This document shows positions 1-36,316 of a DNA stretch of 64,000 nt, piece by piece. A program made the position numbers and the translations under genes. The DNA is taken from positions 39,060,001 to 39,124,000 of the forward strand of contig NC_135887.1 of NCBI RefSeq assembly GCF_964194155.1, written 5' to 3'. How positions within the stretch are numbered: the first letter of the stretch is position 1; each line of letters begins with the position of its first letter. The stretch comes from Cetorhinus maximus. Taxonomy: Eukaryota. The notes beneath the pieces are model-generated. The model was not told the DNA's origin. It ran no database searches and saw only the letters and a list, made by a program, of their open reading frames with translations.

Positions 1-951
1 TTCATCAGTCATGTTCTGGTCACAATCATTAGTGGTATCTTGGTTATCATCCTCATCCATTCGCTCTTCAAAAAGTAGTGCAAGGTCCAGAATTTCTTCC
101 TCTGGCTGGTAACTGTGGTCAATGGCAGTCTGGTCATCTTCTTCATCTACCTGCTCCTCAAAGAGTAACACAAGTTCCAGAATGCCTTCCTGTAGCTGCA
201 GATGTGGTGCTTTCTCTACGGAGACTAGTTCAAACCATTCTCAGTTGACCTGGGTTTCCATTGCTACTGGTGAATAAAGAAGCTGCAAAGCTATACAAGC
301 TTATCGGCTTAATAAGGAGCAGCCTTGATTATGAATAACATAGAGAGCGTCAGTAAGTTCTCTTCCATTAAATCAAAGTGTGGCAGTCATCTGCCCTTGC
401 GCTTTTCGTGAGGTGCCTACAGTGCCATAAAGTCGAGTGATAGATGGTTCGAGAAACTCAGGCTTCAGCCACTGTACCATATTAGAAAGAATTGACACTC
501 CTGCCCCTGTGTCCAACTTAAAATTGATTTTGTGGCCATTGACTATGATGTCTGCACTTCGTAAGTTCTCCTTAGATTTTGCAACTTCACCCAGGAAAGG
601 CACTTTGTGTTCCTCTGTATCTTCTATTTCCTGGATACTGCTTGCTCTGATTGACCTCCCTTTACATTTTTGAGAAGGAGGCTATGTTGCAGCATACCGC
701 TTTAAAATGGCTCTGCCTCAGGCAGGAATGACACTCAGCATGTATGGTGGGGCATTCATTGCCCCTATGGGGTTTGCTTGCATCACAACAGGTGCCCTGG
801 ATAATGGTAGCAAATGCCCTCTCTTCCGTCTGGGTCTGCTTTTTAGTGAGTGTGCCGGTACCTCTATTGCTCACAAACTGGACCGAAAATTGAAATACGA
901 ATCGAAGGCCTTAATGACCTTTTCACAAGTTGCTGCGTCCTCATTAACGCC
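1..951 (-). mobile_element. Degenerate Gypsy-like gag/protease remnant, truncated at 951 by a different LTR element
   Basis: Minus-strand ORFs show a CCHC knuckle (CHSCLRQSHFKAVC, 662-874) and a retropepsin active site (FKLDTGAGVSIL, 373-603). Confidence 0.8.
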
Positions 952-1207
952 TGTAGTAATTATGGTTTTATTTAGTGTGCAACATACCTTTAAGAATAAT
1001 ACTTGTTAGGCAAGATCACATGATCTTTAGTAACCAATAGGAGAACAGCACGGGCCACCTCAACAGTCAGTGTAGAGATAGAGTTGGAGTTGAAAGCACA
1101 CGTGTAGTTGCTGCTGAGTACATTGTAAATAAACTTACTGTTTCCACCCAAGAATTGTCTGCAGATCAATTCTATCACTAACAGCACAACTCAGCCACCC
1201 AACAACC
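952..1207 (+). repeat. 5' LTR (~256 bp)
   Basis: Starts TGTAGTAAT. Matches the reverse complements of the LTRs at 11313-11561 and 19757-20012. Followed directly by a PBS. Confidence 0.9.
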
Positions 1208-1210
1208 AAC

Positions 1211-1223
1211 TGGTAACGAGGAT
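1211..1223 (+). promoter_or_regulatory. Primer-binding site, probably tRNA-Ser(GCU)
   Basis: TGGTAACGAGGAT three bases after the LTR end; resembles TGGCGACGAGGAT, the complement of the vertebrate tRNA-Ser(GCU) 3' end. Confidence 0.7.
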
Positions 1224-1941
1224 AAAACAGGATTGAACAGAAGAAATCAAGTTAAAAAGAAATCGTCACTGTGCCTCGCCCAGTGATTGTAAGTAGCAAG
1301 CTCCATTAGAATTGAGGAAGTTATCCCCTCTCCAAATGCCACAATTTGGGAGAATTGATCCTTTTGAACCAGCCACAGATGATTGGACTCAATACATAGA
1401 ACGCCTCACATTCTTCTTTCAAGCAAATGACATTATGGGGGAAGAGAATAGGCGAGTGATCCTCTTGAGTACTTGTGGGAGCAAAACCTACGGTTTGATT
1501 TGAAGTTTGACAGCACCCAGTGCCTCAGATTCAAAGAATTTCGATGAATTGGTCAACCTTATGAAGGGTCACTTTCAACCCAAGCCCTCAGTCATGAAGC
1601 AGAGGTTCAGGTTTCATTCACAAAATAGAGCCCCAGGTGAGACAATTGCATGCTACGTGGCAAATTTGAAGCAGCTAACGGAACATTGTGAGTTTGGTAC
1701 GGCTCTGAATGACATGCTCAGAGATCGTTTAGTGTGTGGTGTATAAGAGGACACTATTCATAAAAGCTTATTGTCCAAAGTGAATTTGGATGTCAAGAAG
1801 GCACTAGAGATGGCGCTGGCCATAAGCAGAGTAACTGTCCATTATGGAAGCCAATCGGCAAAGCTACCAGTGTTAGTATTGATAGGCAGAGGACCAAGCC
1901 TTCTAGGGTGACATTGGCTAAGAGAAATCAACCTTGATTGG

Positions 1942-2545
1942 CCACTGAGATTCCAAAAGGAAGCTGGAAGCATTCCTGTTTTGAAAAAGGAGTGTGTAAG
2001 GACTCAACAACCTGAAGAAATGCAGGCTGTCTTAAGCCAAAACTGAAGAACAGCAGAAGGATCTCAAAGAGACCCTGCTTGATGACCGAGTTCAAGACGA
2101 GGTGAGCAACCTTTGCAAGGAAAAAGAAAACCTGTTGAATGACCTTTACATGCTACAAGATTCCCTCAGGTCAAAGTTTGTACCTCTGGGAAAGTATGAA
2201 GAGAAACAGAAAGAATTCAGCACCTCTCTGATTAAACTCAAGAATCAGTTGGCAAAGAAGGTGCAACAATGTTCAATTTTCCAGGAGGCAGCAAATAAAT
2301 ACAATAAAGAGACAGAAGAGCTGAAGAATCAGCTAAATGAAACCAAAGTGGCTTTAGAAGCAAAAGTCACAGAATTTCCCAAACAGCAGAAAGATAATGA
2401 AATTCTGGGAGACTCAGCCACTGAGCTCAGACAAGTTCAACTTGCATCTGAGAGAAATCTGGCCAGTAGTGAGGTCAAAAAGAAGGCCGAGATTAAAGTC
2501 TGTGGTTGAAAGAAGAAGGCACTTAGAAAGAAGATACAGAAATAC
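1942..2545 (+). pseudogene. Captured coiled-coil host fragment (UACA/RAI14/ANKRD24-family-like) inside Gypsy pol
   Basis: Translation ..QDEVSNLCKEKENLLNDLYMLQDSLRSKFVPLGKYEEKQKEFSTSLIKLKNQL.. resembles the UACA coiled-coil repeats (comparison from memory). Has one frameshift near 2040. Absent from the sister Gypsy copy. Confidence 0.6.
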
Positions 2546-3231
2546 TAATAGGGCCTTAATTCTGGCAGCTTTCATGCATAGGCCTGAAAATCAAATCATA
2601 AACTGCGATGCCCTTAGTCGTTTGCCTTTATAAGAAAATGATGAGCACGTCCCAGTTCTACAGTAAGTTGTTTTACTGTTAAATTTCTTAGATTCCTCAC
2701 CAGTATGTGCTCGACAGATCAGAGGCCAGGCAATTCGGGACCCAATCCTACCTCAAGTACGAGAACAAGTGCTACATGGTTGTCTCAGGAGCCCGGTATC
2801 TGATGGAATGAAACTGTACTTCAACAGAAGACATGAAATAACCAGCCAGGATGGCATCTTATTTTGGGAGCACGAGTGATAGTTCCTCCAAAGGGAAGGG
2901 AGCCACTTTTAATTGAGCTCACAGTGCCCATCCAGGAATTTCCCGAATGAAGAGCATAACACACAGCTATCTATGGTGGCCTGGGACGGATGGTGAAATA
3001 GAGAGTTTATAAAGCACTGTGTGCAATGTCAGCAACTGCAAAAGTTTCCAGCGACAGCTCCATTTCACCCGTGGGAGTGGCCAGGTTGACCCTGGGTGTG
3101 GTTACACATTGACTACGCTGGACCTCTCCTGGGAACAATGATTCTGCTCATTGTCAAAGCCCATTCAAAATGGTTGGACATATATGAGGTGAAGTCACCA
3201 ATGTCGGGCACTACAATTGAAAAACTACGTC

Positions 3232-4523
3232 TGTAGGGGTGGTAGTGTGTGTCAGCTTCACCTCTGACTTTTGAGCGGCCCGAATCACTCCCACTCCCTG
3301 GGTTCTAGACCTTGGACTTATTTGGAGGTTGTGACAAAGTGCAGCAGACAACTGGTTTTGGTGCAAGGAAAAAAAAACTGGGTTTATTGAAGTCACAAAT
3401 GAACTTATAACATTAGGATTACACTGAGATTATACAGACCTACAAAGTACACTTAGTTAAGAATGGGGAACACACGGCATAACGAGGGAAAATCACGCTA
3501 CTAATCCCCTTACCCTTGTCCCACCCCCAAAACCTAACTAAATTGAACTAGGAGAGATCAGGGATCATGCTCACCAACCAGGGTTCCTTGACAGTTTGAA
3601 ATCCAGCCAGGTAAGCCGGTTGCAGTCGTGGGGTATGCTCTTTGTGTCCTCTGGGGCCTGCCATCTCCACATGGTCCTGGTCTGTGGAATCTGCGAAGGT
3701 TCTTCAGTTGGGTGGAGGGCGCGGTTGTGGGTGGTCGATCTTCGTGGACGGCTGTGGTTGCATCCTTGTTGTCTTCGGTTGAGCCTGCCACCCCATGCCC
3801 CTCGTCATGATGTTGCCTGTGGGCCTGCAAACCTCCAGATCTCCTCCCTGCTTAAACTCTGCTTCAAGCGCTCCAAAAACTGCTCACCCTTCAGATCGCC
3901 TTCCTCCGCTTAGCTCAGCTCCCTGCTTAAAACTCTGCTTCAATCTCTCTAAAAACTGTTCACCCCACTGTGTCCCCTCCACCTTCATAACTGGTGACCC
4001 AGTTATACTATTTTTTCGAATTTCTTATCTGAAACCAAATCAAGGTTAGTTCTTTGTCTGATTTTGGTGGGCTTCCCCAGGTGATTGTTGTCTCGTTGTT
4101 TTTAATGGGCTCGCATGATGTTTATCGTTGTCTTCCTGTCCCCGTAACTAGTCTTGAACTGAAAGCCATTGTATATGTGGAGTATTGATAGGTTCGCATA
4201 ATTGCATTGATGGCTGCCTTCATGCCTTAGTAGTTAGTAGTGATTATTTATGCAAGGTTTTGATGGGCTTTAGTTTCATGTAAGATGAAGTCTTTCTCTG
4301 GGTTGATCGTTATAAAGGGAAGAATGTGTATTCTGTCTCCTCTCGTTTGGTTCCAGGCAGCAATCCACACTGCACGCAACAAGCCCGGGCATGTCCAGTC
4401 CCAGGCCTTCATGGGCTGCAGGGTTCTACACTTAACCCAGCAGTTGGGTCCTCTGCCATAAAAGTCCAAAAGTCATATCCTTGTTGATGATATGAAAAAT
4501 GTGGGAATTTTGAGAACCCTTCA
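3232..4523 (-). mobile_element. Long solo LTR (~1.29 kb) inserted in the Gypsy integrase
   Basis: Termini TGTAGGGG...CCCTTCA; 4-bp TSD CGTC (3228-3231 and 4524-4527). The host integrase resumes on both sides. Minus-strand AATAAA near 3384-3389. Confidence 0.85.
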
Positions 4524-4698
4524 CGTCAGAGTTTTGCAATTCACGGACTATCAGAAGTAATCATTTCCAATAACAGCACGGCTAGCCCAACATTTATTGC
4601 CCATCCAGATACTGGCTGTTCAATCTTCAACAATTATCTTCAGTGCTACAGACCTGCTTGGCTCAGGTTCTGATTCCTCAGTTTGGGAGGTGTCAGCT

Positions 4699-4760
4699 GT
4701 GGCTCAGTTCATAGCACCCTCGCCTTTGAATCAGAGGGTTGTGGGTTCATGTCCCACTCC
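4699..4760 (+). mobile_element. tRNA-derived SINE head fragment
   Basis: A-box-like GTGGCTCAGTT and B-box-like GGTTCATGTCCC at tRNA-like spacing; too diverged to be a tRNA gene. Confidence 0.55.
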
Positions 4761-5454
4761 TGGAAAACCAAGAACTGTGATTGTACTCGAAAGAAGTTGC
4801 AATCTGTGACTGTTGGTAACTCGAAAAGAGTTTCCTCAGTTTGGCCACAAAGCATTGGCTTAGCTTCAATCTACCATCACTAAGAACACCATCTCAACTC
4901 AACCCAAAGGCACCTCCTCCCTGTTTCATCAAGTCAATTGTACTTGCTGCACTAAGCCATGCTGCATTGTTCTGGCAGTGGTGATTTTGAGTTGGATTTT
5001 CAGCTTGATAAATTGTCATTACTTCAGAAGGATGCACCCAGCTGAACTGAATTTCCAACCCTGCAAGCATTTACATTGCATACTTCTCAGAGAAACACAA
5101 TTGGGTGTACTCGGCACAATTCAGAGGACTGTTTGGTTATCATGACCTTCATCAGGCAAGATATTTGGCAACATAATGTATGTATTTTTTAAAAACAAAA
5201 TTAAGTTCACCAGTAAATTAAGCCCCAAGATGCCTTTTTTTGGCCAATAGGATGTAGATTTGAAATTTCACATGATGCGGAATGGTTCATTTTTTTCCCA
5301 TTTACCCTGGTTTTCTCCTCTTCTGTAAGATTTGGCCTACACAGAGGTACAATTCAGTGTGCACTGATAACTGTCCAGAAGCTCTCCCAAGTGGCCCTAT
5401 TTAATGTGTGAGCCTGACAGTGACATCAGCAGTCCGTATTATATCTTACCAATA

Positions 5455-5620
5455 TAAAAACAGAAAATGCTGGAAATACTCAGCAAGTCTGCAATGTCTA
5501 TGGTGAGAGAAACAGGGCAAACATTTCTTCAGAAGAGTCATTCTCAGACCTGCTGAATATTTCCAGCACTTCGGTTTTCATTTCAGATTTCCAGCATCTG
5601 CAATATTTTGCTTTTATTTC
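5455..5620. mobile_element. Penelope-like terminal repeat remnant forming a short inverted pair
   Basis: GCTGGAAATACTCAGCA...TGCTGAATATTTCCAGC, similar to the termini of the element at 33283-35615. Confidence 0.6.
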
Positions 5621-9914: not shown

Positions 9915-12010
9915 ATCATAAAAAGATAGAGGACAAAAAGAAGACCATTTGGCCCATCATGCCAGTGCCAGCTCTTTGTTAGAGTTATCCAATTAGTCCC
10001 AATCCCCTGCTCTTTCCTCATAGCCCTGTCAAATTTACCCATCATGTATTTACCCAATTCCATTTTGAAAATTACTATTGAATCTGTACTGCCATCCTTT
10101 CAAGCAGTCCATTTCAGGTCACAACAACTCACTATGTGAAATATTTTTCACCTTGTGTTGCCTCTGGTTCTTTTGCCAGTCACCTTAAACCTGGGTCCTC
10201 TGATTTCTGACCCTTCTGCCATTTGAGATAGTTCTCCTTATTTAATCTATCAAAAATTTTCATGATTCAACAGCTTCAAGATTTCAACAGCTCTATTAAA
10301 TCTCCTCCAAACTTCCTCTACTTCAGCCTCTCCACATAACTGGCGTCCTTAGACCTGGTACCATTCTTGTAAATCTTTTCTACTCCCTCTCTTTGGCTTG
10401 ACATTCCTAAAATGTTGTGCCTGGCATTGAGCACAACACTCCAGCTGAGGCTTAACTTTCTTGATTTTGCACTCTATTTGTCTCTATTAATAAGCCAATC
10501 ACACAACTGGCCCTGTCACCTCCAAGCACCTGTGTATGTACAACCAGTTCTCTCTGTTCCTGCACTTCCTTTAAAATGTATCACTTCTCTGCATTAACTT
10601 TCATCTGTCATGTGTCTGCCCAATTCACCAGTCTGTCTATGTCATCCCGAAGTCTATTACTATTCATCTCATTGTTCAGACTATTTCTGAATTTTGCATC
10701 ATCTACAATCTTTAAATTACTTCTTATACCGAAATCCAGGTTATTAATATTTATCAAAAAGGACAGAGATCCTAATACCAATCCCAGGGAGACAGCGCTA
10801 CACACTTTCCTTTAATCAAAAAAACAACCAGTCACTTCTGCTTTCTCTCTTAGCTAACTTCTTACCACACCGCTACTGTCCCCTTAATGATCCCATGGGC
10901 TTTAATTTTGCTAACAAATCTATTATGTGGTGTTTTATTAAATGCTTTTGAAAGTTCATAAACAAAAAGTCAATTGTCCTACCCTCTCCACTACTTCATC
11001 AAAGAACTTGATCAAATTAGTCAAACATAATGTGCCCTTAACAAATCTGTGCTGACGTTCATTTTATAGTCCATACTTTCCCATGTGCCAATTAATTTAC
11101 CCCAGGGTTCTTGACTCTAAAAGTTTCCCGAAATGAATGTCAGGCCAACTGGCCTTTGGTTGCCCAGGTTAATCCCGCTCCTCTTTTTTGAGCAGGGTTA
11201 ACATTTGCAAACCTTCAGTCCTGTCTACATCCATACCTAAGGAGATTGGGAAAATGTGCTCAGTGACTCCATAATTTCCATCTTTGCTTCCCTCAGTAAT
11301 AAAGAATGTATCTGTTGTAGGGTGGCTGGGTTGTGCTAGTAATGATAGAATTGAGCTGCAGTCACTTCTCGGGTGGAAAAATTACGTTAATTTACAATAT
11401 ACTCAGCAGCAAATACACATGTGTTTTCAACTCTAACTCTACACTGACTGCTGAGGTAGTCCGTGCTACTCTCCTATTGGTTACTACAGATCATGTGATC
11501 TTGCCTAACAAGTATTATTCTTAAAGTACATTACACACTAAATAAAACCATAATTACTACAGTATCCCACCTGGACCAAGTGAATTTTCTACCTTAAGTA
11601 CTGCTTATTTCAGGAATTCCTCCCCTCTTTACCCTTTACACTATTAATATCCCAGGCCAAATTAAGATAATTCAAGCCTCCAGTTATCATTAGTTAATAG
11701 CATTTCTCTGTAATTTGTTTGCAAATTTGCTTCTTTATCTCCTTCCCAGTATTTGGTGCCCTAGATTACACAATCGGTGTTGTAATAGCTCATCTAATGC
11801 TCCTTAAGACTAACTAAATAGATTCTGTCCCTCAACTATACTATCCCTTTCTAGCGCTACAATTGTTTATTTAATAAATACTGTCACTCCTGCCTTCTCA
11901 TTTTTCTTCCCTACATTGTAACCAGGAATATTAAATTCTTAATCCTCCACTTTTTTGAGATAGGTCTCTTGTTATTGCCAATAAATCATAGTTCCACACA
12001 GCAACATGTA
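9915..12010 (-). mobile_element. Old CR1 LINE remnant(s)
   Basis: Minus-strand peptide GLVLGSLSFLININNLD...RLRDDIDRLVNWAD is a degenerate CR1 RT; CR1-like 3' tail near 9915. Confidence 0.7.
11313..11561 (-). mobile_element. Solo LTR of the 952/19757 Gypsy family
   Basis: TGTTGTAG...ACTACA with a perfect 5-bp TSD GTATC (11308-11312 and 11562-11566). Confidence 0.92.
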
Positions 12011-19756: not shown

Positions 19757-22700
19757 TGTTGTAAGGTGGCCAAGTTGTACTATTAATGAGAGAGTTGATC
19801 TGCAGACACTCCTTGCGTGGGAGCATTAAGTTTCTTTACAACATGCTCAGCAGCGACTACACATGTGCTTTCAACTCCAGCTCTATATCTGTGCTGACTG
19901 CTGAGGTAGTCAACGCTACTCTCCTATTGGTTACAACAGATCATGTGATCTTGCCTAACAATTATTATTCTTAAAGGAAAATTTAACACTAAATAAAACC
20001 ATAATGATTACATTCCTCCCCCTTTAACTGGGCTATACATATTAAATTTATAAGTACATACGTTTCAAGACGACATAATATTTACACTGGGTAAGGGATT
20101 TACAAGTTCAAACTTTCAGGTGGTTTCCTGGCACATGTGGAATGTCTCAGCTCCACAACTTCAGATTCTTTGTCAGGAACTCCCTTTTCCGGAGTTGCCT
20201 GAACATCAGGTGCTTCGGTGGGAACTTGCAGTTCTGTATCCTCAACTCTTACAGGAACATCAGACATGTCAGTCCTGGGTTGAGTATCCTCGACAGGAAA
20301 TGCAGATCCGGTCATGGTCACTGGTGGAACCAAATCTTGGTGATTTGTCTCTCTCTTCCTTAAGTGGTCCACATGTTTATGGATGATCATGTCTACCACC
20401 TCCACATGGTAAGATAGAGGTCCAGTCACCGCACTTATTTCACCCGCTAATCACTTTGGTCCTTCCCTGAAGATTTTCACGTATATCGGCTCTCCTATGG
20501 TAAATTTCCTCTTGGGACTATGCCAGTCGTGTCTAGTGTTCTGGCTTCCCTGACCCATTTCCAACTTCCCCTCTAAATTCGGCATTATTAAGCTCAATCT
20601 CATCCTGAGACGCTGTTTCAACAATAACTCCACAGGTGTGGCACCTGTTGTTGTGTGAGGGGTAGCCCTGTAATGAAAAAGAAAGCGTGCTAGCTTGGTT
20701 GCCAAGGAATCACCAGTTAGCTTTCTCATGCCTGTCTTGAACATTTGAACCACCCTTTCAGCCAATCCGTTTGAGGAAGGGTGGTACGGTGCAGCTTTCA
20801 CAAGTGATACCATTGAAGCTGATAAACCGTTGAAACTCAGCACTCGTATGTGCCGTGCCGTTATTGGAAACGACTACTTCTGGTAGTCCGTGAATGGTTA
20901 AACTTTGACGTAGTTTTTCAATTGTAGCGCCCGACATTGGTGACTCCACCACATATATGTCCAACCATTTTGAATGGGCTTTGACAATGAGCAGAAACAT
21001 TGTTCCCAGGAGAGGTCCAATGTAGTCAAAGTGCACCCAGGGTCTACCTAGCCACTAATGTGGGTGTATTGGAGCTGTCACTGGCAACTTTTGCAGTTGC
21101 TGACATTGCACACAGTGCTTTATAAACTCTCTATTTCACCATCCATCCCAGGCCACCACAGATGGCTGCGTGCTATGGTCTTCATTCGGGAAATTCCTGG
21201 ATGGGCACAATGTAGCTCAATTAAAAGTGGTTCCCTTCCTTTTGGAGGAACTATCACCCGTGCTTCCCACAATAAGATGTCACCCTGGCTGGTTATTTCA
21301 TCTCTTCTGTTGAAGTACAGTTTCATTCCATCAGATACAGGCTCCTGTGACCATCCATGTGGCACTTGTTCTCGTACCTGATGTAGGACTGGGTCCCGAC
21401 TTGACAGCCTCTAATCTGTCAAGCACATACCAACGAGGAATCTAAGAAATTTAACCGTAAAACAAACTCTTATGGAACTGGGGCATGTTCATCATTTTCT
21501 TGTAAAGGCAAACGACTAAGGGCATCGGCGTTTGCGATTTGATTGCCAGGCCTATGTACGAAAGTGTATTCGTACGCTGCCAGAATTAAAGCCCATCGTT
21601 GTATTCTTGCTGAGGCTATGGGTGATATAGCCTTGTCCTCACTAAAGAATCCTAGCAATGGTTTGTGGTGTGAAATGATTGTAAAATGGCAGCTGTGTAC
21701 AAACTGGTGAAATTTCTTGACACCAAAGATGATGGACAGGCCTTCTTTTTCTAACTGCAAGTATCCCTTTTCCGCTGTGGTGAGCATTCTTGATATGTAA
21801 CCTATTGACCGTTCCGTGGCGTCGTTCATCCAATGAGAGAGCACTGCTCCCACTCCGTAGGGAGATGTGTCACATGTCAGCACCAATTCTTTCATCTAGT
21901 CACAATGCACTAATAGATTAGACAAGTGCAACATTTGTTTCCCCTTTATGAAAGCTCCTTTCTGGGGCATCTCCCAAGACCAACGTTGATTCTTTTTGAG
22001 TAGAGAATGCAGGTGGGCAGAACTGTAGACAAATTGGGTAAGAACAGCCCATTATAGTTGATCATTCCTAGGAATGATTTGACCTCTGAGGCATTCTTTG
22101 GTGCAGATGCCTCTCTGATGGCTCTCACTTTCTCCTCAACTGGATGGAGGCCCTGTGAATCTACCCGGTGACCCAAATAGATTACCTAACTCATTTGGAA
22201 TGTGCACTTTTTTTTTGATGCACTGCAGCTTGCAAGAGATGTTTTAAGACTTCTTTTAAGTTTGTCAAATGCTGTTTTTCAGTGAGCCCTTTCACCAATA
22301 CATCATCTTAATATGCTACAACCTGGGCCAGTCCTCGGAAAGATGTTCTCTGAAAGATGGCACAAGCAGAAGAGACACCAAAAGGCAACCGAGTATATTG
22401 GTACAACCCTTTGTGGGTATTAATTGTGATAAATTCCCAGGAGGCATTATCCAACTCTCATTGTTGATCAGCATGACTCATGTCAAGTTTTGTATAAGTT
22501 GTCCCTCATGCCAGCTTGGCATACAGGTCTTCAATTTTTGGAATGGGGTGCCTATCTAGCTTAGTTACTTTATTAACTGTTAGTTTGTCGTCTCCACAAA
22601 TTCGGGTGCTTTGGTCGGGTTTAAGGATGGGGACTATGAGTGCTGCCCAATCTGAGAACTGCACAGGTTGTATAACACCCAGTTTCTCTAGTCTGTTCGT

Positions 22701-23535
22701 CTGTTCAGTTCAATGTCGATATTTTCTCGCAGGACATATGGCACCGGTCTCGCCTTCATGAAGCGAGGTTTTGCTCCAGGATCCACATAAATCTTGGCCT
22801 GCAGACCCTGGATTTTCCCCAGTTCATCATTAAAGATGGTGGCATACTTTCTAAGTAGCTCTGGTAACCCACTTGCTCTCAACTGGAAAATTTGAGAACA
22901 TTCTAACTTAATCTCCTTTAACCAATTTCGTCCCAGGAGGCTTGGCCGTTCATCTGCTACCACCATCAAGGGTAGCTTTGCCGATTGGCTTCCATAATGG
23001 ACAGTTACACTGCTTATGCATTTTATTTGAATGTCTTAATCCGTATATGTTTCTTCTATTACTTCTAAAATTAATTGATGCTCACCATTATTTAATTATC
23101 TTAAGGTGAGTTCCCCAATTACTGTAGTGGAAGCTCCCATGTCCACTTCCATTCTAACAGATTTGCCATTTACTTTTGCTGTGACAAATATTGCTTCTGT
23201 CTTTCCAACTTTCAGATTAAACAATGAGTGAATGTCTGAATTTGTTGTTTCAGGCTCTTCGACATTATAGATTTCATTGGGCTTTCTCTGCTAGAATCTT
23301 TCCTTGCATTGTCTCATCATATGTCCATTTCTTTGACAATAGTAGCATCTGAGTTTTTTAAACTGCCAATCATTCAAAGACTGATTGTTTCGACCTCTAT
23401 TAAAATTATTCTTTGATTTTGCTGCTAAGTTATTTTCCTTTCTTCTTCAGCTAGTGGGGGCTGTTTCCCGCTCCTTAGCGGAGTCTCGCTTTTTTGCGCC
23501 TCTTTCGGCTGAGGTTTCCCGCCTGATGTGGAGGA
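19757..23535 (-). mobile_element. Gypsy element, 5'-truncated: gag knuckle, PR, RT, RNase H, IN, PPT and 3' LTR (19757-20012)
   Basis: CYYCQRNGH knuckle, LLGRNWL, RNase H (LTCDTSPYGVGAVL..EKEGL..DALSRLP) and IN (PYHPSSNGLAER). PPT complement TTCCTCCCCCTTTAA abuts the LTR. Many frameshifts. Confidence 0.93.
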
Positions 23536-26500
23536 TTAATACAGCTTGTTTTTTCCCATTTAATTTCTATGAAATTTTCTGTAACAAGTTGCTGGAAGTG
23601 AGAGATAGAAATGGCATGGTACTCCCATCTAGGGCACCTGAGATCTGAGTGAACATGGCAAACAGCAAATGTGGAGTCGAAACGTCGACTCTTTTCTTCT
23701 CCACCGATGCTGCCAGACCTGCTGAGTTTTTCCAGGTAATTCTGTTTTTGTTATGGTAAACATCAGTCCAACTGCTTAAGTAATTCGGTCAAATAGCCGT
23801 AAAATCAAAGGACAAAATCTGCACAAGGAAGTATAAATTCGAATGGGTGAATTAAATGTTAAATCAGATGCAGAAAGAGAAACAAAGAGAAAAAAAAAGA
23901 GACTGAATTAAGAGAGAAAACCAGAGACAGAAAAAAAGGTAAAATAATTTTTACATTTTAGTTAAAGGAAAATCTCCAGAAATAATAAAAACTTGAAAGA
24001 ATAAGACTCCAAACTCATTTTTTTTTCAGTGATAGAGGGCGGAATTGTCTGTGTCCACATCAGGCGTGTTTGATGGCATGAACGGACAATATGACAAGAA
24101 GGCCAAAAATCGGTTACATGATGTTGTGAAACCAGTTTGCGATCATCTGCTCAGCCCATCAATGGCTGGCCAAGTTCCCCGCCATCGGAGGTTGGGAACC
24201 TCATTGTATTACATCAGCATATCATTATAATGCCAGCCCGCTGGACTCATTCCACACCCCCATCACCCCCCACGCCCCCACTACCCCACTGGATCATCTG
24301 CCCACATCGGCTGGAAAACACGCCAGTGCAGGACACGTTTTGACAACTGTGGCGTGCAGAAGTTGGGACTTACCACCAGGGTCTTGATCACATCGCAGAC
24401 ATCTGAGGAGGAGGAGATGCTGGAGCACGACATCAACGGCACACTGGTGGAACATCCATGGCATGTTGGATGGATTCTCATGGGCATGGCTCTGCTGTGA
24501 AGCAGCTCATGGAAGCTGGAAAGTCACCGTTGATGCTCACAATGGATGATGGTCGAGGGGGCACGAGAGGAAGGCCTAGGATCGATTGGGAGAAGTAAAG
24601 ATGTTGGGGGGTGAGTTTGGGTGCGGGAGAATGAAGTTGTTGGGGGGTGAAGTTGGGAAGGGGAGATTGAAGGTGCTGGGGGTTGAGGTTGGGAGGGGGG
24701 AATGAAGGTGTCCACGGGAAAGGTTGGGGGTGGGGAGGGAGTATGGGGGGAGGAGGGGCAACAGGGAGGAGATGACAACTGGGGATGTAGGTGTAAGGGA
24801 GGTGGAAGGGGTGGAAGGTTTAAAGGAAGGAGTTCAGAGGGGGTAAGGAGTGTGGAGAGGAGAGGGAGTCCAGGAGGAGGAAGGGGTGTGGAGAGGAGTA
24901 AACTGTTTAAGGGAGTGATGAACAGTTTGGGGATAAAACAGTTTAAGTCAACAGTTTACCATCCTGAGTCACAAATGGCTTTGGAAAGATGGCATCAAAC
25001 TCTTAAAACTATGATGAGATTGTATAGTCAGGATTATCCACAGGATTGGGATAGGGGAATTCCATTCTTGTTATTTGCTATCAGGGATGCTCCTAATACA
25101 TTGACTGGTTTTAGACCTTCTGAACTAGTTTATGGTCATGAAGTAAGGGGACCACTGAAATTGATTCATGAGAAATTGGTGGGTCAAAATTCGGAACCTG
25201 CTCTCCTGGATTATGTATCAAATTGCAGAGAGAGATTGGATAGAGCATGTGAGTTGGCTAGGGAACGTTTAAAGATATCACAGCAAGTGATGAAAAAGAA
25301 GGTAGATAGGAAAGCTGCAGCTCGTAGTTTTGTTACTGGGGAGAAAGTGCTAGTTCTGTTATCAGTACTGGGACACTCATTAAAGGCAAGTTTTAGTGGG
25401 CCTTATAGGATTGAAAAGAAATTGAGTGATATGAATTATTTAATAAATCCTCCAGATAGAAGAATGGAGCAGAGGGTGTGTCATGTAAATATGCTTAAAA
25501 AGTACTTTGACAGGGAAAACGACCAAAAGGAAGTGCTAGTAGTGGTAGATAATGAGAAAGAAATAGAAATGCAAGATCCTGAAATTAATTTTCCTCTAAT
25601 CAAACTGGATAATGAGGGGGAGCTTGAAAAATTAAATGTAATATTGAGTTACCTTCCAGACACATGTCAAAGTGATTTGAGGAAGCTATTGCAGTCACAC
25701 AAAGATATTTGTGGGAATAAGCTGGGAAGGACAAATTTAGCTATGGATGATGTATGTGTAGAAGTTTCATCTTCACTTAGGCAATATCCTTATAGATTAA
25801 ATCTGGAAAAGTTATCACAAGTACAGAAAGAAATTGAATTCATGCTTCAAAATGATATCATTGAGTCTAGTTGCAGTAACTGGAGTTTGTCTATTGTGCT
25901 GGTACCAAAACCGGATGGAACACAAAGACTGTGTGTGGACTGTCGAAAGGTGAATGCGGTGACAAAAGCAGATTCATATCCTATACCACGGTTGGAAGAT
26001 TGTATTGAGAAAGTGGGACAATCAAAATTTATCACAAAGATTGACTTTCAGAAGGATATTGGCAAGTAGCATTATCAGAAAGAGCAAAGGAGCTATCAGC
26101 TTTTGTAACACCAGATGGACTATATCAGTTTAAAGTCATGCCATTTGGTATGAAAAATGTAGCTGCAACATTTTAAAGACTGACAGACATAGTTATTGCA
26201 GGCCTGAGCAATTGTGCTGTTTATATTGACGACTTGATAGTTTTCAGTCAGATGTGGGAAGAGCATTTACAACATCTGGAAGAATTATTTACTCGGTTAC
26301 AAGAAGCTAATTTGGTGGTGAACTTGGCTAAAAGTGAATTTGCAAAAGCACAAGTTACGTATCTAGGCATACCATTGGACATGGTAAGATGGCTCCAAGA
26401 GATGTGAAAGTCAAGGCTATCGCAGATTTCCCAGTTTTCAGATTTCTGGGCATGAATGGGTTTTATCGGAAATTTGTACCAAATTTTAGCAATGCGGTTG

Positions 26501-32900: not shown

Positions 32901-33376
32901 ACCAAGACCTGTTGCCCACACCCTCTGACAGTTAGCCATTCTTCACTCTGCTTCAGGTCAGCTTTATTGTATTTATTCATTCAGGTGAGAAGGTGGTGCT
33001 GAGTTGTCTTCTTGATTAATTGCATATGGTGTTGGTACACCCACAATACAGTTAGGTAGGGAGATTTTGACCCAGCAACAATGAAGGAATGACAATATAT
33101 TTCTAAGTTAGAATGGTGTGTGACTTGGGGGGAAACCTGCAACTGTCTTGTTTTTTGTTTCAATGATGCACACAAGCCGTCGACATTGTAGCTGAGTTAA
33201 TTTTATTTGTAACACATTTTCCTAACATAAACACATATCTGCAGTAACTGAATTCTATCAAGACAGGCTCCAACATGTGCTAAAAGCAAAATACTGCAGA
33301 TGCTGGAAATCTAGAACAAAAACAAAAATACCTGGAAAAACTCAGCAGGTTTGACAGCATCTGCGGAGAGGGATAC

Positions 33377-33415
33377 AGTTGACGTTTCAAGTCCGTATGA
33401 CCCTTTATCAGAACT
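33377..33415 (-). ncRNA. Minimal type I hammerhead ribozyme motif with a core mutation
   Basis: AGUU-CUGAUAA-A-GGGUC-AUACG-GACUU-GAAAC-GUC-AACU; CUGAUGA is mutated to CUGAUAA. Confidence 0.7.
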
Positions 33416-35516
33416 AAGACATATAGAAATGAGATGAAATATAAGCTAGTAGAAGGTGGAGGGACAGGAGAGCTCGATAGGGGGCCAGTGATAGGTGGGG
33501 GCTAAGAAGAGACTGCCAAAGATGTCATAGACAAAAGGACAAAGGGGTGTTGACAGTGGTGATATTATCTAAAGGATGTGCTAATGGGGACATTAAGGGA
33601 AGCAAGCAGGACAAGCTAGTGGCAGATGTCCCTTGTGAGGGTGGGTTGGGGGGAAGGGATCGAAATGGGCTAAAAGGTGGAGATAAAACAATAGATTGAA
33701 ATAAATTTAAAAATAGGAGAGAAAAGAAAAAAAATATAGTTGTAAAAAAATTATAAATTATTGGAAAAAGGGGGGTCGGAAAGGGGGTGGGGTTGGAGGA
33801 GAGAGTTCATGATCTGAAATTGTTGAGCTCAATATTAAGTCCGGAAGACTGTAAAGTGCCTAGTCGGAAGATGAAGTGCTGTTCCTCCAGTTTGCGTTGA
33901 GTTTCACTGGATCATTGCAGCAGGTCAAGGACGGACATGTGGGCATGAGAGCAGGGAGGTCTGGGTCATGCTTGCGGACAGACCAAAGGTGTTCCGCAAA
34001 GCAGTCACCCAGTCTGCGTTTGGTCTCTCCAATGTAGAGGAGACCACATTGGGAGCAGCGAATGCAGTAGACTAAATTGAGTGAAGTGCAAGTGAAGTGC
34101 TGCTTCACTTGAAAGGAGTGTTTGGACCCTTGGACGGTGAGGAGAGGGGGAAGTAAAGGGGCAAGTGTTGCATCTTCTGCGTTTGCATGGGAAGGTGCTG
34201 TGGGAGGGGGTTCAGGTGTAGGGGGTGATGGAGGAGTGGACCAGGGTGCCCCAGAGAGAATGATCCCTGCGGAAAGCCACAGGGGCAGGGGGGGGCGGTG
34301 AAGGGAAGATGTGTTTGGTGATGGCATCATGCTAGAGTTGGCAAAAATGGCGGAGGATGATCCTTTGAACGCGGAGGCTGGTGGGGTGATAAGTGAGGAC
34401 AAGGGGGACTCAAACATGGTTCTGAGAGGGAGAGCAAGGTGTGAGGGCGGATGCGCGGGAGATGGGCCGGACATAGTTGAGGGCCCTGTCAACCACCGTG
34501 GGTGGAAAACCTCGGTTAAGGAAGAAGGAAGACATGTCAGAGGAACTGTTTTGGAAAGTGGCATCATCAGAACAAATGCGACGGAGGCGAAGGAACTGAG
34601 AGAATGGGATGGAGTCCTTACAGGAAGCGGGGTGTGAGGAGCTGTAGTCGAGGTAGCTGTGGGAGTCAGTAGGCTTGTAATGGATATTGGTGGACAGTCT
34701 ATCACCAGGAATTGAGACTGAGAGGTCAAGGAAGGGGAGGGAAGTGTCAGTGATGGACCACGTGAAAATGATGGAGGGTTGGAAATTGGAAGCAAAATTA
34801 ATAAATTTTTCCAGATCCAGACGAGAGCATGAAGCAGCACCGAAGTAATCATCGATGTACCGGAAAAAGAGTGTGGGAGGGGGCCTGAGTAGGACTGGAA
34901 CAAGGAATGCTCCACATACCCTATAAAGAGACAGGCATAACTGGGGCCCATGCGGGTACCCATAGCCACACTTTTTATTTGGAGGAAGTGAGACGAGTTT
35001 AAGGAGAAATTGTTCAGTGAGAGAACAAGTTCAGCCAGAGGAGAATAGTGGTGGATGGGGATTGTTCGGGCCTCTGTTCGAGGAAGAAGCGGAGAGCCCT
35101 CAGACCATCCTGGTGGGGGATGGACGTGGAGGGATTGGACATCCATGGTGAAGAGGAGGCGGTTGGGGCCAGGGAACTGGAACTTGTTGATATGATGTAG
35201 GGCGTGAGAGGAATTGCGGATGTTGGTTTATTTCGATCTATTGTTTCATCTCCACCTTTTAGCCCATTTCGATCCCTTCCCCCCACCCCACCCGCACTAG
35301 GGACATCTGCCACTGGCTTGTCCTGCTTGCTTCCCTTAATGTCCCCATTAGCACATCCTTTAGAAAATATCACCACCGTCAACACCCCTTTGCCCTTTTG
35401 TCTATGACATCTTTGGCAGACTCTTCTTGGCCTCCACCTATCACTGGCCCCCTCTCAAGCTCTCCTGTCCCGCCCCCTTCTACCAGCTTATATTTCATCT
35501 CATTTCTTTATGTCTT

Positions 35517-35555
35517 AGTTCTGATGAAGGGTCATACGGACTCGAAAAATCAACT
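35517..35555 (+). ncRNA. Minimal type I hammerhead ribozyme motif with a stem III mutation
   Basis: AGUU-CUGAUGA-A-GGGUC-AUACG-GACUC-GAAA-AAUC-AACU. Confidence 0.7.
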
Positions 35556-36316
35556 GTATCCCTCTCCGCAGATGCTGTCAGACCTGCTGAGTTTTTCCAG
35601 GTATTTTTGTTTTTGTCCAACATGTGCTATCTGACTTTTAAACCCCAGTTCAGGTGATCCCCTAGTTAGTACAGAGTACCGTATAGTATCCACTACCGCA
35701 ATCAACTATTATCATGACTTTTCCCTTTTTAAAAAAAAACAAACTTTTATGCAACTCAAGTGCACAAAATCTCTTATCAATTCTTCATCACTTTATTTTA
35801 GTCAGTCTGTTTTGTCTTTTACTCATCTCTGTATCTCTGTGGTTTTTTTGCACAATTCTTCCACTGGATGTTCTAAATGTTGACGGAGGTGATTTTGAAG
35901 GACAAGGGGCCTTCTCCAGATCTGTGTCACTATCACCCCTTGGATAGTTTTCAGGACTCTCAGGCTTTGTCTGGTTATCTGTTGTTTCACTGGTGCATTC
36001 TGGTTTTTGTTCTTCAGCTACATTTTCTTGTTCAGAGCAGGATTGAGTTGCATTTGTTTTCCATAAGAATTTCCGGTTTCTCCTATACTGTTGTCCGTTT
36101 GTAGTCTGCACTATATAAGACCTTGGTTCTCCTGTGATTCATGTGACAACAGCAGGATTCCAGATCCCTTCATGCTGAATCCTCACTGTCTCTCCCATGT
36201 TCAGGTGAGGCAGAGGTTAGGCGCCTCGATCAAAGTACTGTTTCTGCTTCTGTTGTCTCAGTTTGAGCAGGTCCTGCATGCTGCAGCTCACTGGCTGTGG
36301 AAACAACAGTTGGGGC

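What the first reader, a model, noticed from the sequence alone, without database searches (positions are those of the whole stretch)
1942..2545. Gypsy element whose RT/RNase H is replaced by a host-like UACA-family coiled-coil fragment
Seen: the plus-strand element follows its sister copy (19757-23535) up to REINLDW, switches to ~600 nt of unrelated coiled-coil coding sequence, and resumes at ALILAA..DALSRLP. About 1.3 kb of RT/RNase H is missing, and the insert is in sense orientation and starts in frame with pol. Known: LTR elements can acquire mRNA pieces by template switching during reverse transcription. Inference: the peptide (LQDSLRSKFVPLGKYEEKQKEF..LKNQL) recalls the UACA/RAI14/ANKRD24 repeats, so this looks like LTR-mediated gene transduction, possibly defining a non-autonomous subfamily.
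Basis: partly seen in the sequence, partly recalled or inferred. Interest (0 to 1): 0.7.

Follow-up and report, generated by a model that had tools for sequence, protein, structure and literature searches.

The report
Shark retrotransposons relay captured coiled-coil genes
Hundreds of dead shark jumping-gene copies carry a piece of the host gene UACA in place of their copying enzyme; the piece came second-hand from another jumping-gene lineage that also carries a spliced piece of the host gene TPR, and its reading frame stayed open while it spread, so it was likely translated and may have been useful to the element.

Summary
The insert matches shark UACA (59% aa, E 2e-21) and one large exon of the host gene (72% nt). 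It replaces about 1.3-1.4 kb of RT/RNase H. At least 438 copies share the window's 3' junction (control 0). It was not taken straight from the mRNA. It is collinear with a cassette in an unrelated LTR lineage, sharing an internal deletion and a linker; an independent capture is rejected (AU p = 0.017). That lineage also carries eight TPR exons without introns, so cargo was acquired through RNA. The true boundaries are about 1982-2550; 1869-1981 is a diverged Gypsy remnant. In the family, gag, protease and coiled coil form one frame. No stop was fixed over 0.27 substitutions per site (about 6 expected), and net dN/dS is 0.53 against 0.78-0.88 within families (P = 0.025; a cruder test was inconclusive). 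Some sister lineages did fix stops. This is a variant of known LTR-mediated retroposition (Tan 2016; maize Bs1). This scan noted similar captures of other coiled-coil genes on other shark and ray DNA (unchecked notes). What the protein did is untested.

The parts
952..1207 (+). 5' LTR of the chimeric Gypsy copy (no matching 3' LTR in the window)
   Evidence: 83-87% identical to the sister 3' LTR and the solo LTR
1211..1223 (+). Primer-binding-site-like motif after the LTR
   Evidence: Same position and motif in full-length copies; no tRNA was tested
1336..1820 (+). gag remnant, broken in this copy; about 580-595 nt (zinc knuckle and protease catalytic part) missing at 1820/1821
   Evidence: Weak Pfam Retrotrans_gag hit, E 0.0014, below the cut-off; other copies hold the missing stretch
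1821..1868 (+). Protease C-terminal part of the contemporary RT-bearing family
   Evidence: Between-family identity 0.90-0.91 here, equal to within-family identity
1869..1981 (+). Diverged Gypsy protease-end/RT-start remnant that travels with the cassette (likely from an earlier carrier)
   Evidence: Identity to the RT-bearing family 0.48-0.75; differences by codon position 0.41/0.26/0.60; all 20 loci picked by this stretch run on into cassette sequence
1982..2328 (+). UACA block 1 (host exon G000:C27:11441704-11441353, minus strand)
   Evidence: 72% nt to the host exon, 59% aa to P0001, collinear with the donor lineage
2329..2431 (+). UACA block 2 (host C27 about 11440911-11440800), joined to block 1 across a shared 450-nt in-frame deletion
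2432..2550 (+). Linker of unknown origin shared with the donor lineage; ends in the family-wide stop of the gag-protease-coiled-coil frame
   Evidence: no host parent found
2551..3231 (+). End of RNase H and N-terminal integrase region, out of frame with the upstream ORF
   Evidence: 87% to the sister; frame analysis
3232..4523 (.). Unrelated 1.29-kb TG...CA insertion with a 4-bp duplication (likely a solo LTR)
4523..4582 (+). Last integrase fragment of the copy
   Evidence: 87% to the sister
11314..11562 (-). Solo LTR of the same family with a 5-bp target-site duplication
19757..23536 (-). Decayed RT-bearing sister copy (partner family)
   Evidence: relative L045 has domain order PR-RT-RH-INT

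Best explanation
This is one dead copy of a non-autonomous Gypsy subfamily (at least 438 copies) whose RT/RNase H is replaced by a UACA-derived coiled-coil cassette inherited from another LTR lineage, likely by template switching between co-packaged RNAs, and whose frame was likely kept open by selection for translation. Steps: (1) an LTR element picked up about 1.55 kb of the big UACA exon and a spliced TPR segment (sequence shown; RNA route shown for TPR, inferred for UACA); (2) that lineage split into subfamilies with nested deletions (shown); (3) a shortened cassette moved into a Gypsy backbone just after protease (shown; an intermediate carrier is inferred from 1869-1981 and a 0.2-substitution stem); (4) flanks were refreshed by recombination with the RT-bearing partner, which would supply RT and integrase in trans (three 3' junctions shown; trans-mobilisation inferred); (5) masters would have made one Gag-protease-coiled-coil polyprotein. 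I think the coiled coil most likely served as a soluble, self-associating tail that kept the RNA translated and packaged with its own Gag, not as a working UACA (inferred, untested).
For: UACA identity at protein and DNA level. All 20 loci examined leave the sister sequence upstream of the insert; 18 of 20 resume at the same base. 438 junction matches against 0 in the control. Whole insert collinear with the L039-type family, including deletion and linker. Tree: 100/97 support for nesting; AU p 0.017 against independent capture. 16 of 17 longer-cassette loci carry TPR exon pieces; L026 has 8 exons in 0.66 kb against 14 kb in the gene, with exact splice joins. No shared stop in the cassette frame in 20 and 29 copies; the donor family has about 575 codons free of shared stops against 36 and 46 shared stops in the other two frames. 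About 6 stops expected, P about 0.002-0.004. Net dN/dS 0.53 against 0.78 and 0.88. LTR pairs, polypurine tract and 5-bp TSDs.
Against: The first dN/dS test (NG86, 8 + 3 copies) did not separate stem from within-family values (0.39 against 0.45, P 0.32), and the better test is only P = 0.025, one-sided, on 170 codons. Other donor-side lineages appear to have fixed stops (one site in all 4 related copies L027/L032/L033/L034; two sites shared by L029 and L037), so an open frame was not needed everywhere. In-frame deletions (4 of 4 shared ones) are expected 62-74% of the time from microhomology alone. Two 1-nt differences shift the frame in the last ~15 codons. The L039-type donor family showed no Gypsy protein match in its flanks, so a Gag fusion cannot explain its open frame. 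No intermediate carrier was found.
Confidence: 0.7

Rival explanations
1. Direct capture: this Gypsy family switched template onto UACA mRNA itself.
For: Sense orientation, replacement of pol and a host-level nucleotide match fit the Tan et al. model (PMC5131818 section 5).
Against: It shares a 450-nt deletion and a non-UACA linker with another lineage. It is closer to L036/L039/L040 (72%) than to the host (69%). AU p = 0.017 against it.
Confidence: 0.04
2. Neutral passenger: the relay is real, but the cassette is only filler. The open frame reflects avoidance of RNA decay, chance and in-frame microhomology deletions, with no use for the protein sequence.
For: Weak and test-dependent dN/dS signal. 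Stops fixed in some lineages. In-frame deletion null of 0.62-0.74. The cassette has been shortened repeatedly.
Against: Third positions diverged 1.8 times as fast as second positions on the stem, against 1.0-1.5 within families. The family stop already leaves about 1.8 kb of 3' sequence, so a stop a few hundred bases earlier would change the 3' UTR length little (inference).
Confidence: 0.3
3. Functional module: the coiled coil was actively useful, for example dimerising the precursor in place of RT to activate protease, or (TPR part, donor lineage) interfering with nuclear retention of unspliced element RNA.
For: In-frame fusion directly after protease. RT aids protease activation through precursor dimerisation in HIV-1 (PMC11998509, abstract). 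TPR retains unspliced RNA and its N-terminal coiled coil tethers it to the pore (PMC5035971, passage). Two coiled-coil cargoes here; more in unchecked notes from other genomes.
Against: No binding, expression or activity data. The window subfamily lost TPR; the donor family shows no protease. dN/dS of about 0.5 is weak for a needed domain.
Confidence: 0.25
4. DNA-level origin: the UACA exon piece entered by DNA repair or recombination, not through RNA.
For: All captured UACA lies inside one 2.7-kb exon (host-strand positions 3651-5201 within 2793-5519), so intron loss cannot be tested for it.
Against: Adjacent TPR cargo is precisely spliced; both cargoes are in sense orientation and in one frame.
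Confidence: 0.07

Closest known systems
LTR-mediated retrocopies in metazoans (Tan et al. 2016, PMC5131818; 12 passages and section 5 read)
   Same: Partial host mRNA replaces part of the internal ORFs of an LTR element; multi-gene chimeras; further rounds as a non-autonomous element.
   Different: The passages read describe young loci with one or a few insertion sites. Here there are hundreds of copies, several subfamilies, transfer of the cassette between unrelated LTR backbones and a frame kept open over 0.27 substitutions per site.
Maize Bs1 (review PMC13317346, passages; primary papers seen only as reference titles)
   Same: LTR element with segments of several host genes joined into a chimeric ORF.
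   Different: Plant element whose cargo is enzyme fragments and whose chimera is reported as transcribed and translated. Here the cargo is coiled coil only, in a vertebrate, all examined copies are decayed, and expression is not shown.
TR-GAG non-autonomous elements (PMC4350172, abstract)
   Same: About 4-kb non-autonomous LTR elements that keep a gag ORF and lack the copying enzymes.
   Different: TR-GAGs carry gag only; this family keeps gag, protease, a host-derived tail and an out-of-frame integrase remnant.
Autonomous/non-autonomous partners that exchange sequence (PMC6894440, 3 passages; soybean LTR swapping, Du et al. 2010, seen as a reference title only)
   Same: Defective elements recombine with autonomous relatives during reverse transcription.
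   Different: Here the conserved core that persists across backbones is host-derived coding sequence.
Extra ORFs of bdelloid LTR elements (PMC5408684, 12 passages)
   Same: Family-specific captured ORFs, some of coiled-coil type, shared between unrelated retroelements.
   Different: Those are separate ORF3s beside an intact pol; no named host parent for the coiled-coil type appeared in the passages read.

Membership tests
Ty3/Gypsy LTR retrotransposon | Domain order PR-RT-RH-INT | tested here: met
   In RT-bearing relative L045: Asp protease (E 7e-5, just under the cut-off), RVT_1, RT_RNaseH, rve in that order; chimeric flanks are mostly 80-90% identical to that family
Ty3/Gypsy LTR retrotransposon | Paired LTRs, PBS, PPT, short TSD | tested here: met
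   LTR pairs in 11 of 12 fetched copies, PPT before the 3' LTR; exact 5-bp TSD at the solo LTR, L119 and L122, 4 of 5 bases at L127, unresolved in the other 7 of 10 listed. The window copy itself has no 3' LTR.
Ty3/Gypsy LTR retrotransposon | RT phylogeny placing it in a named clade | not tested
   No RT tree was built
Non-autonomous LTR subfamily | Many dispersed copies sharing the same loss of RT | tested here: met
   438 junction matches, control 0; 18 of 20 loci with the same 3' junction
LTR-mediated retrocopy (Tan 2016) | Host coding sequence replaces internal ORF, flanked by discontinuous LTR element | tested here: met
LTR-mediated retrocopy (Tan 2016) | Intron loss | tested here: inconclusive
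   Met for TPR in the donor lineage; untestable for UACA, which lies within one exon
LTR-mediated retrocopy (Tan 2016) | Microsimilarity at switch points | tested here: inconclusive
   Short shared words are visible at the three 3' junction variants; no chance test was run, and the 5' and original mRNA junctions are too diverged
Bs1-like chimeric gene | Several host genes joined in one open frame | tested here: met
   UACA + linker + TPR in one frame in the L039-type family; UACA only in the window subfamily
Bs1-like chimeric gene | Transcribed and translated | not testable with these tools
   Only unstranded contigs from runs guessed to be RNA were available
TR-GAG | Single ORF coding gag only | tested here: not met
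   The ORF continues through protease and the coiled coil
Domesticated retrogene | One intact, conserved locus | not tested
   The copies aligned carry private breaks; no systematic search for an intact locus was made

The most novel reading that the evidence does not exclude
Non-autonomous LTR elements of sharks and rays repeatedly recruit host coiled-coil segments (UACA and TPR here) as working protein modules, for example a dimeriser standing in for RT after protease, or a TPR decoy that helps unspliced element RNA leave the nucleus. They pass these modules between unrelated element backbones: host-gene domestication by a selfish element, the reverse of the usual direction.
Probability: 0.25. 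Interest if true: 0.85.

Novelty: new variant of a known kind. Interest (0 to 1): 0.62.

Why it matters
Host-gene capture by LTR elements is known, but in the animal examples I read it gives young, low-copy retrocopies. Here the whole history is legible in one vertebrate genome: two parent genes, nested subfamilies, a jump of the cargo to a new backbone, repeated recombination with the partner, and hundreds of copies that allow selection on the cargo to be measured. If the purifying signal holds, it shows a germ-line retroelement maintaining host-derived protein for its own use. It also makes testable whether coiled-coil cargo is favoured. Practically, these copies can be annotated as spurious 'uncharacterised' or UACA-like genes (P0003) and will confound read mapping to UACA and TPR.

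Tried and rejected
Pfam does not name the insert (only weak generic coiled-coil hits). The 3,910 first-look candidates are not a copy number; I dropped my early 'thousands' estimate for the floor of 438. NG86 dN/dS was inconclusive, and its within-family baseline (0.43) looks distorted by transition bias. The in-frame deletion test is not significant against its null. Linker origin: no host parent found; the only hit was P0003, itself a cassette copy. Intermediate carrier: 20 loci picked by 1869-1981 all run into cassette sequence, none directly into RT. Expression: two runs only guessed to be RNA gave 153 and 144 contigs over the stretch, some across the 5' junction; unstranded and possibly DNA, so not counted as evidence. 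Circular-RNA origin of the permuted UACA order in L024-L026: rejected because the joints lie inside the exon, not at splice sites. One stop upstream of the cassette reached 15 of 20 in a sample picked for likeness to the window; it is a CpG-type site with a stop in 6 of 19 of the first sample and 9 of 25 RT-bearing copies, so I read it as recurrent decay. No structure or complex prediction was run. PMC13343379 (outline) was not relevant.

Full report
Observation. The element starts with an LTR at 952-1207 and follows the minus-strand sister at 1821-1921 (80%) and 2551-3231 (87%); sister bases 22908-21594 have no counterpart. ORF 2036-2506 gave 2 hits among 3088 candidates, both shark UACA (E 2e-21 and 8e-18), 59% identical over 97 aa. 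Searching the genome with P0001 located the host exon at G000:C27:11440482-11443208 (95% aa, 911 open codons). The insert matches it at 72% over 330 nt. The genome is thus a shark's, and the match is not compositional.

Family. A DNA search scored 40 places, the 39 others 89-90% identical over nearly the full insert. In all 20 loci fetched the sister match stops upstream of the insert; 18 resume at sister 21593/21594, 1 at 22154, 1 not within the locus. A 28-nt pattern across the 3' junction has 438 matches with up to 2 mismatches, control 0: a floor on copy number. Eleven of 12 longer fetches gave LTR pairs (median 88.9%, range 75.6-90.4); elements are about 4 kb, with a polypurine tract. TSDs are 5 bp where resolved (3 exact, 1 near). 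An RT-bearing family (43 matches from 40 candidates scored) shares the flanks at mostly 80-90% and has the Gypsy order PR-RT-RH-INT. A second sample of 20 loci, chosen by the 5' segment, showed at least three 3' junctions, resuming at sister 21594, 22154 and about 22216 (the script classed 6 as 'other' and misfiled L141, which I place with the 22216 group by eye). Public runs under three organism labels hold the stretch; two were laid (labels A and C) and are covered in all 30 bins.

Boundaries. Between-family identity equals within-family identity (about 0.8-0.9) up to about 1860, then falls to 0.48-0.75 over 1860-1978, with differences by codon position of 0.41/0.26/0.60. So 1869-1981 is Gypsy coding sequence of another lineage, not UACA. 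Host-derived sequence begins at about 1982.

The donor. One search also returned longer UACA pieces; I fetched 17 of the 32 non-host places scored. They hold exon positions 3651-5201 (host-strand numbering) at 70-87% identity, mostly 78% or more, with nested deletions. Ten of 17 have a direct-repeat pair around the cargo; none matches the sister element by BLASTN or TBLASTX (best E 0.24). Sixteen of 17 also match exons of a locus on C18 that I identify as TPR (Pfam Nucleoprot-TPR in the captured piece, E 5e-10; TPR_MLP1_2 26 kb downstream on the same strand). L026 holds 8 exons in 0.66 kb against 14 kb in the gene, with joins at the splice sites. This shows capture through RNA for TPR. UACA cannot be tested this way because the captured part lies in one exon.

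Relay. The window insert from 1982 to 2550 is collinear with the L039-type family (29 copies aligned; L108 left out, wrongly oriented), including the 450-nt deletion and the linker absent from UACA. On 358 columns the window family groups with L036/L039/L040 at 100/97, on a stem of about 0.2. A tree with all 17 longer-cassette loci as one clade is rejected (AU p 0.017; rooted on the host; 8 of the 20 new copies used) (all 20). Long-branch pull could affect the tree, but not the shared deletion and linker. 'Donor' means structurally earlier: its LTR-pair identities (5 of 8 copies, 81-90%) overlap those of the window family.

Reading frame. In 12 copies one frame runs from the gag start through zinc knuckle and protease into the coiled coil for about 600 codons. 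It has a single position with stops in half the copies, which I read as CpG decay, and ends at a shared stop at the 3' junction; integrase is out of frame. The donor family has about 575 codons without a shared stop, against 36 and 46 shared stops in the other two frames over the aligned region. On the 170 shared codons neither family has a shared stop. Copies gained stops at 0.12-0.14 per codon per substitution, so 5.6-6.3 were expected over the net distance of 0.27 (P 0.004-0.002). Net dN/dS is 0.53 (95% 0.33-0.84) against 0.78 and 0.88 within families (one-sided P 0.025). Against this: an NG86 test on fewer copies was inconclusive (P 0.32); the 4 of 4 in-frame shared deletions are unremarkable given a null of 0.62-0.74; two 1-nt differences shift the last ~15 codons; stops appear fixed in two other donor-side groups; and in a replicate sample of 17 (3 truncated loci dropped) one CpG-type site upstream of the cassette passed 50%, though it is also frequent in RT-bearing copies (9 of 25).

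Mechanism. Shown: parentage, RNA route for TPR, subfamily structure, transfer between backbones, repeated re-joining to the partner, open frame. Inferred: template switching in shared particles, RT and integrase supplied in trans, translation of the masters. I commit to selection for a translated Gag-protease-coiled-coil polyprotein with weak constraint on the tail (0.7 overall). A purely neutral tail (0.3) and a specific function such as dimerisation in place of RT or a TPR decoy (0.25) are partly overlapping alternatives. The last rests on analogy only (PMC11998509 abstract; PMC5035971 passage).

Known systems and novelty. It works like the LTR-mediated retrocopies of Tan et al. 2016 and like maize Bs1 (review passages); recombination between defective and autonomous relatives is also known. 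It is not a TR-GAG. Nine full-text searches listed nothing on UACA or TPR capture by shark LTR elements; (uveal autoantigen + shark + transposable element) returned 0. Subscription journals, Repbase and Dfam were not searchable, and no supplements were read, so the family may be catalogued without this annotation. Earlier notes of this scan report no look-alike of this insert but describe pol replaced by SH3KBP1, CLIP1, Homer, SUDS3 or Rabaptin-5 pieces in other genomes, and one case with non-coiled-coil cargo. These are unchecked leads; the one I probed (Rabaptin) is not seen amplified here. Verdict: real; a new variant of a known kind; interest 0.62.

Noticed in passing
L026:5266-5927 (G000:C20) and host G000:C18:68555562-68569575: LTR elements carrying eight spliced TPR exons; a protein search with this piece filled all 150 scored rows, so TPR-bearing copies are numerous.
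   Followed up: yes
L024-L026, L028, L038: UACA pieces in permuted order (late block, linker, then early block), suggesting an ancestral tandem duplication around the linker.
   Followed up: partly
L086-L115, upstream of the UACA cassette: A variable purine-rich tandem repeat of about 24 nt lies in frame ahead of the chimeric ORF.
   Followed up: no
window 3232-4523: 1.29-kb TG...CA insertion with a 4-bp duplication and an internal 47-bp repeat, likely a solo LTR; no BLAST match among the other fetched loci.
   Followed up: partly
window 376-681 (minus): Another decayed retroviral-type aspartyl protease fragment just upstream, in opposite orientation.
   Followed up: no
window 33316-33705 and 35227-35616: 390-bp inverted repeat pair at 94% identity, much higher than other repeats in the window.
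   Followed up: no
P0003: A database 'uncharacterized protein' of a shark is a 177-aa piece of the donor-type cassette (UACA blocks plus linker).
   Followed up: yes
window 1982-2550: The cassette keeps the host's 40% A content but has 3 CpG in 569 nt against 23 in 1551 nt of the host exon (this copy is decayed).
   Followed up: no
run X7 on window 1982: 24 contigs from another organism label join the cassette at 1982 to a different upstream sequence, a possible other carrier (table 7).
   Followed up: no
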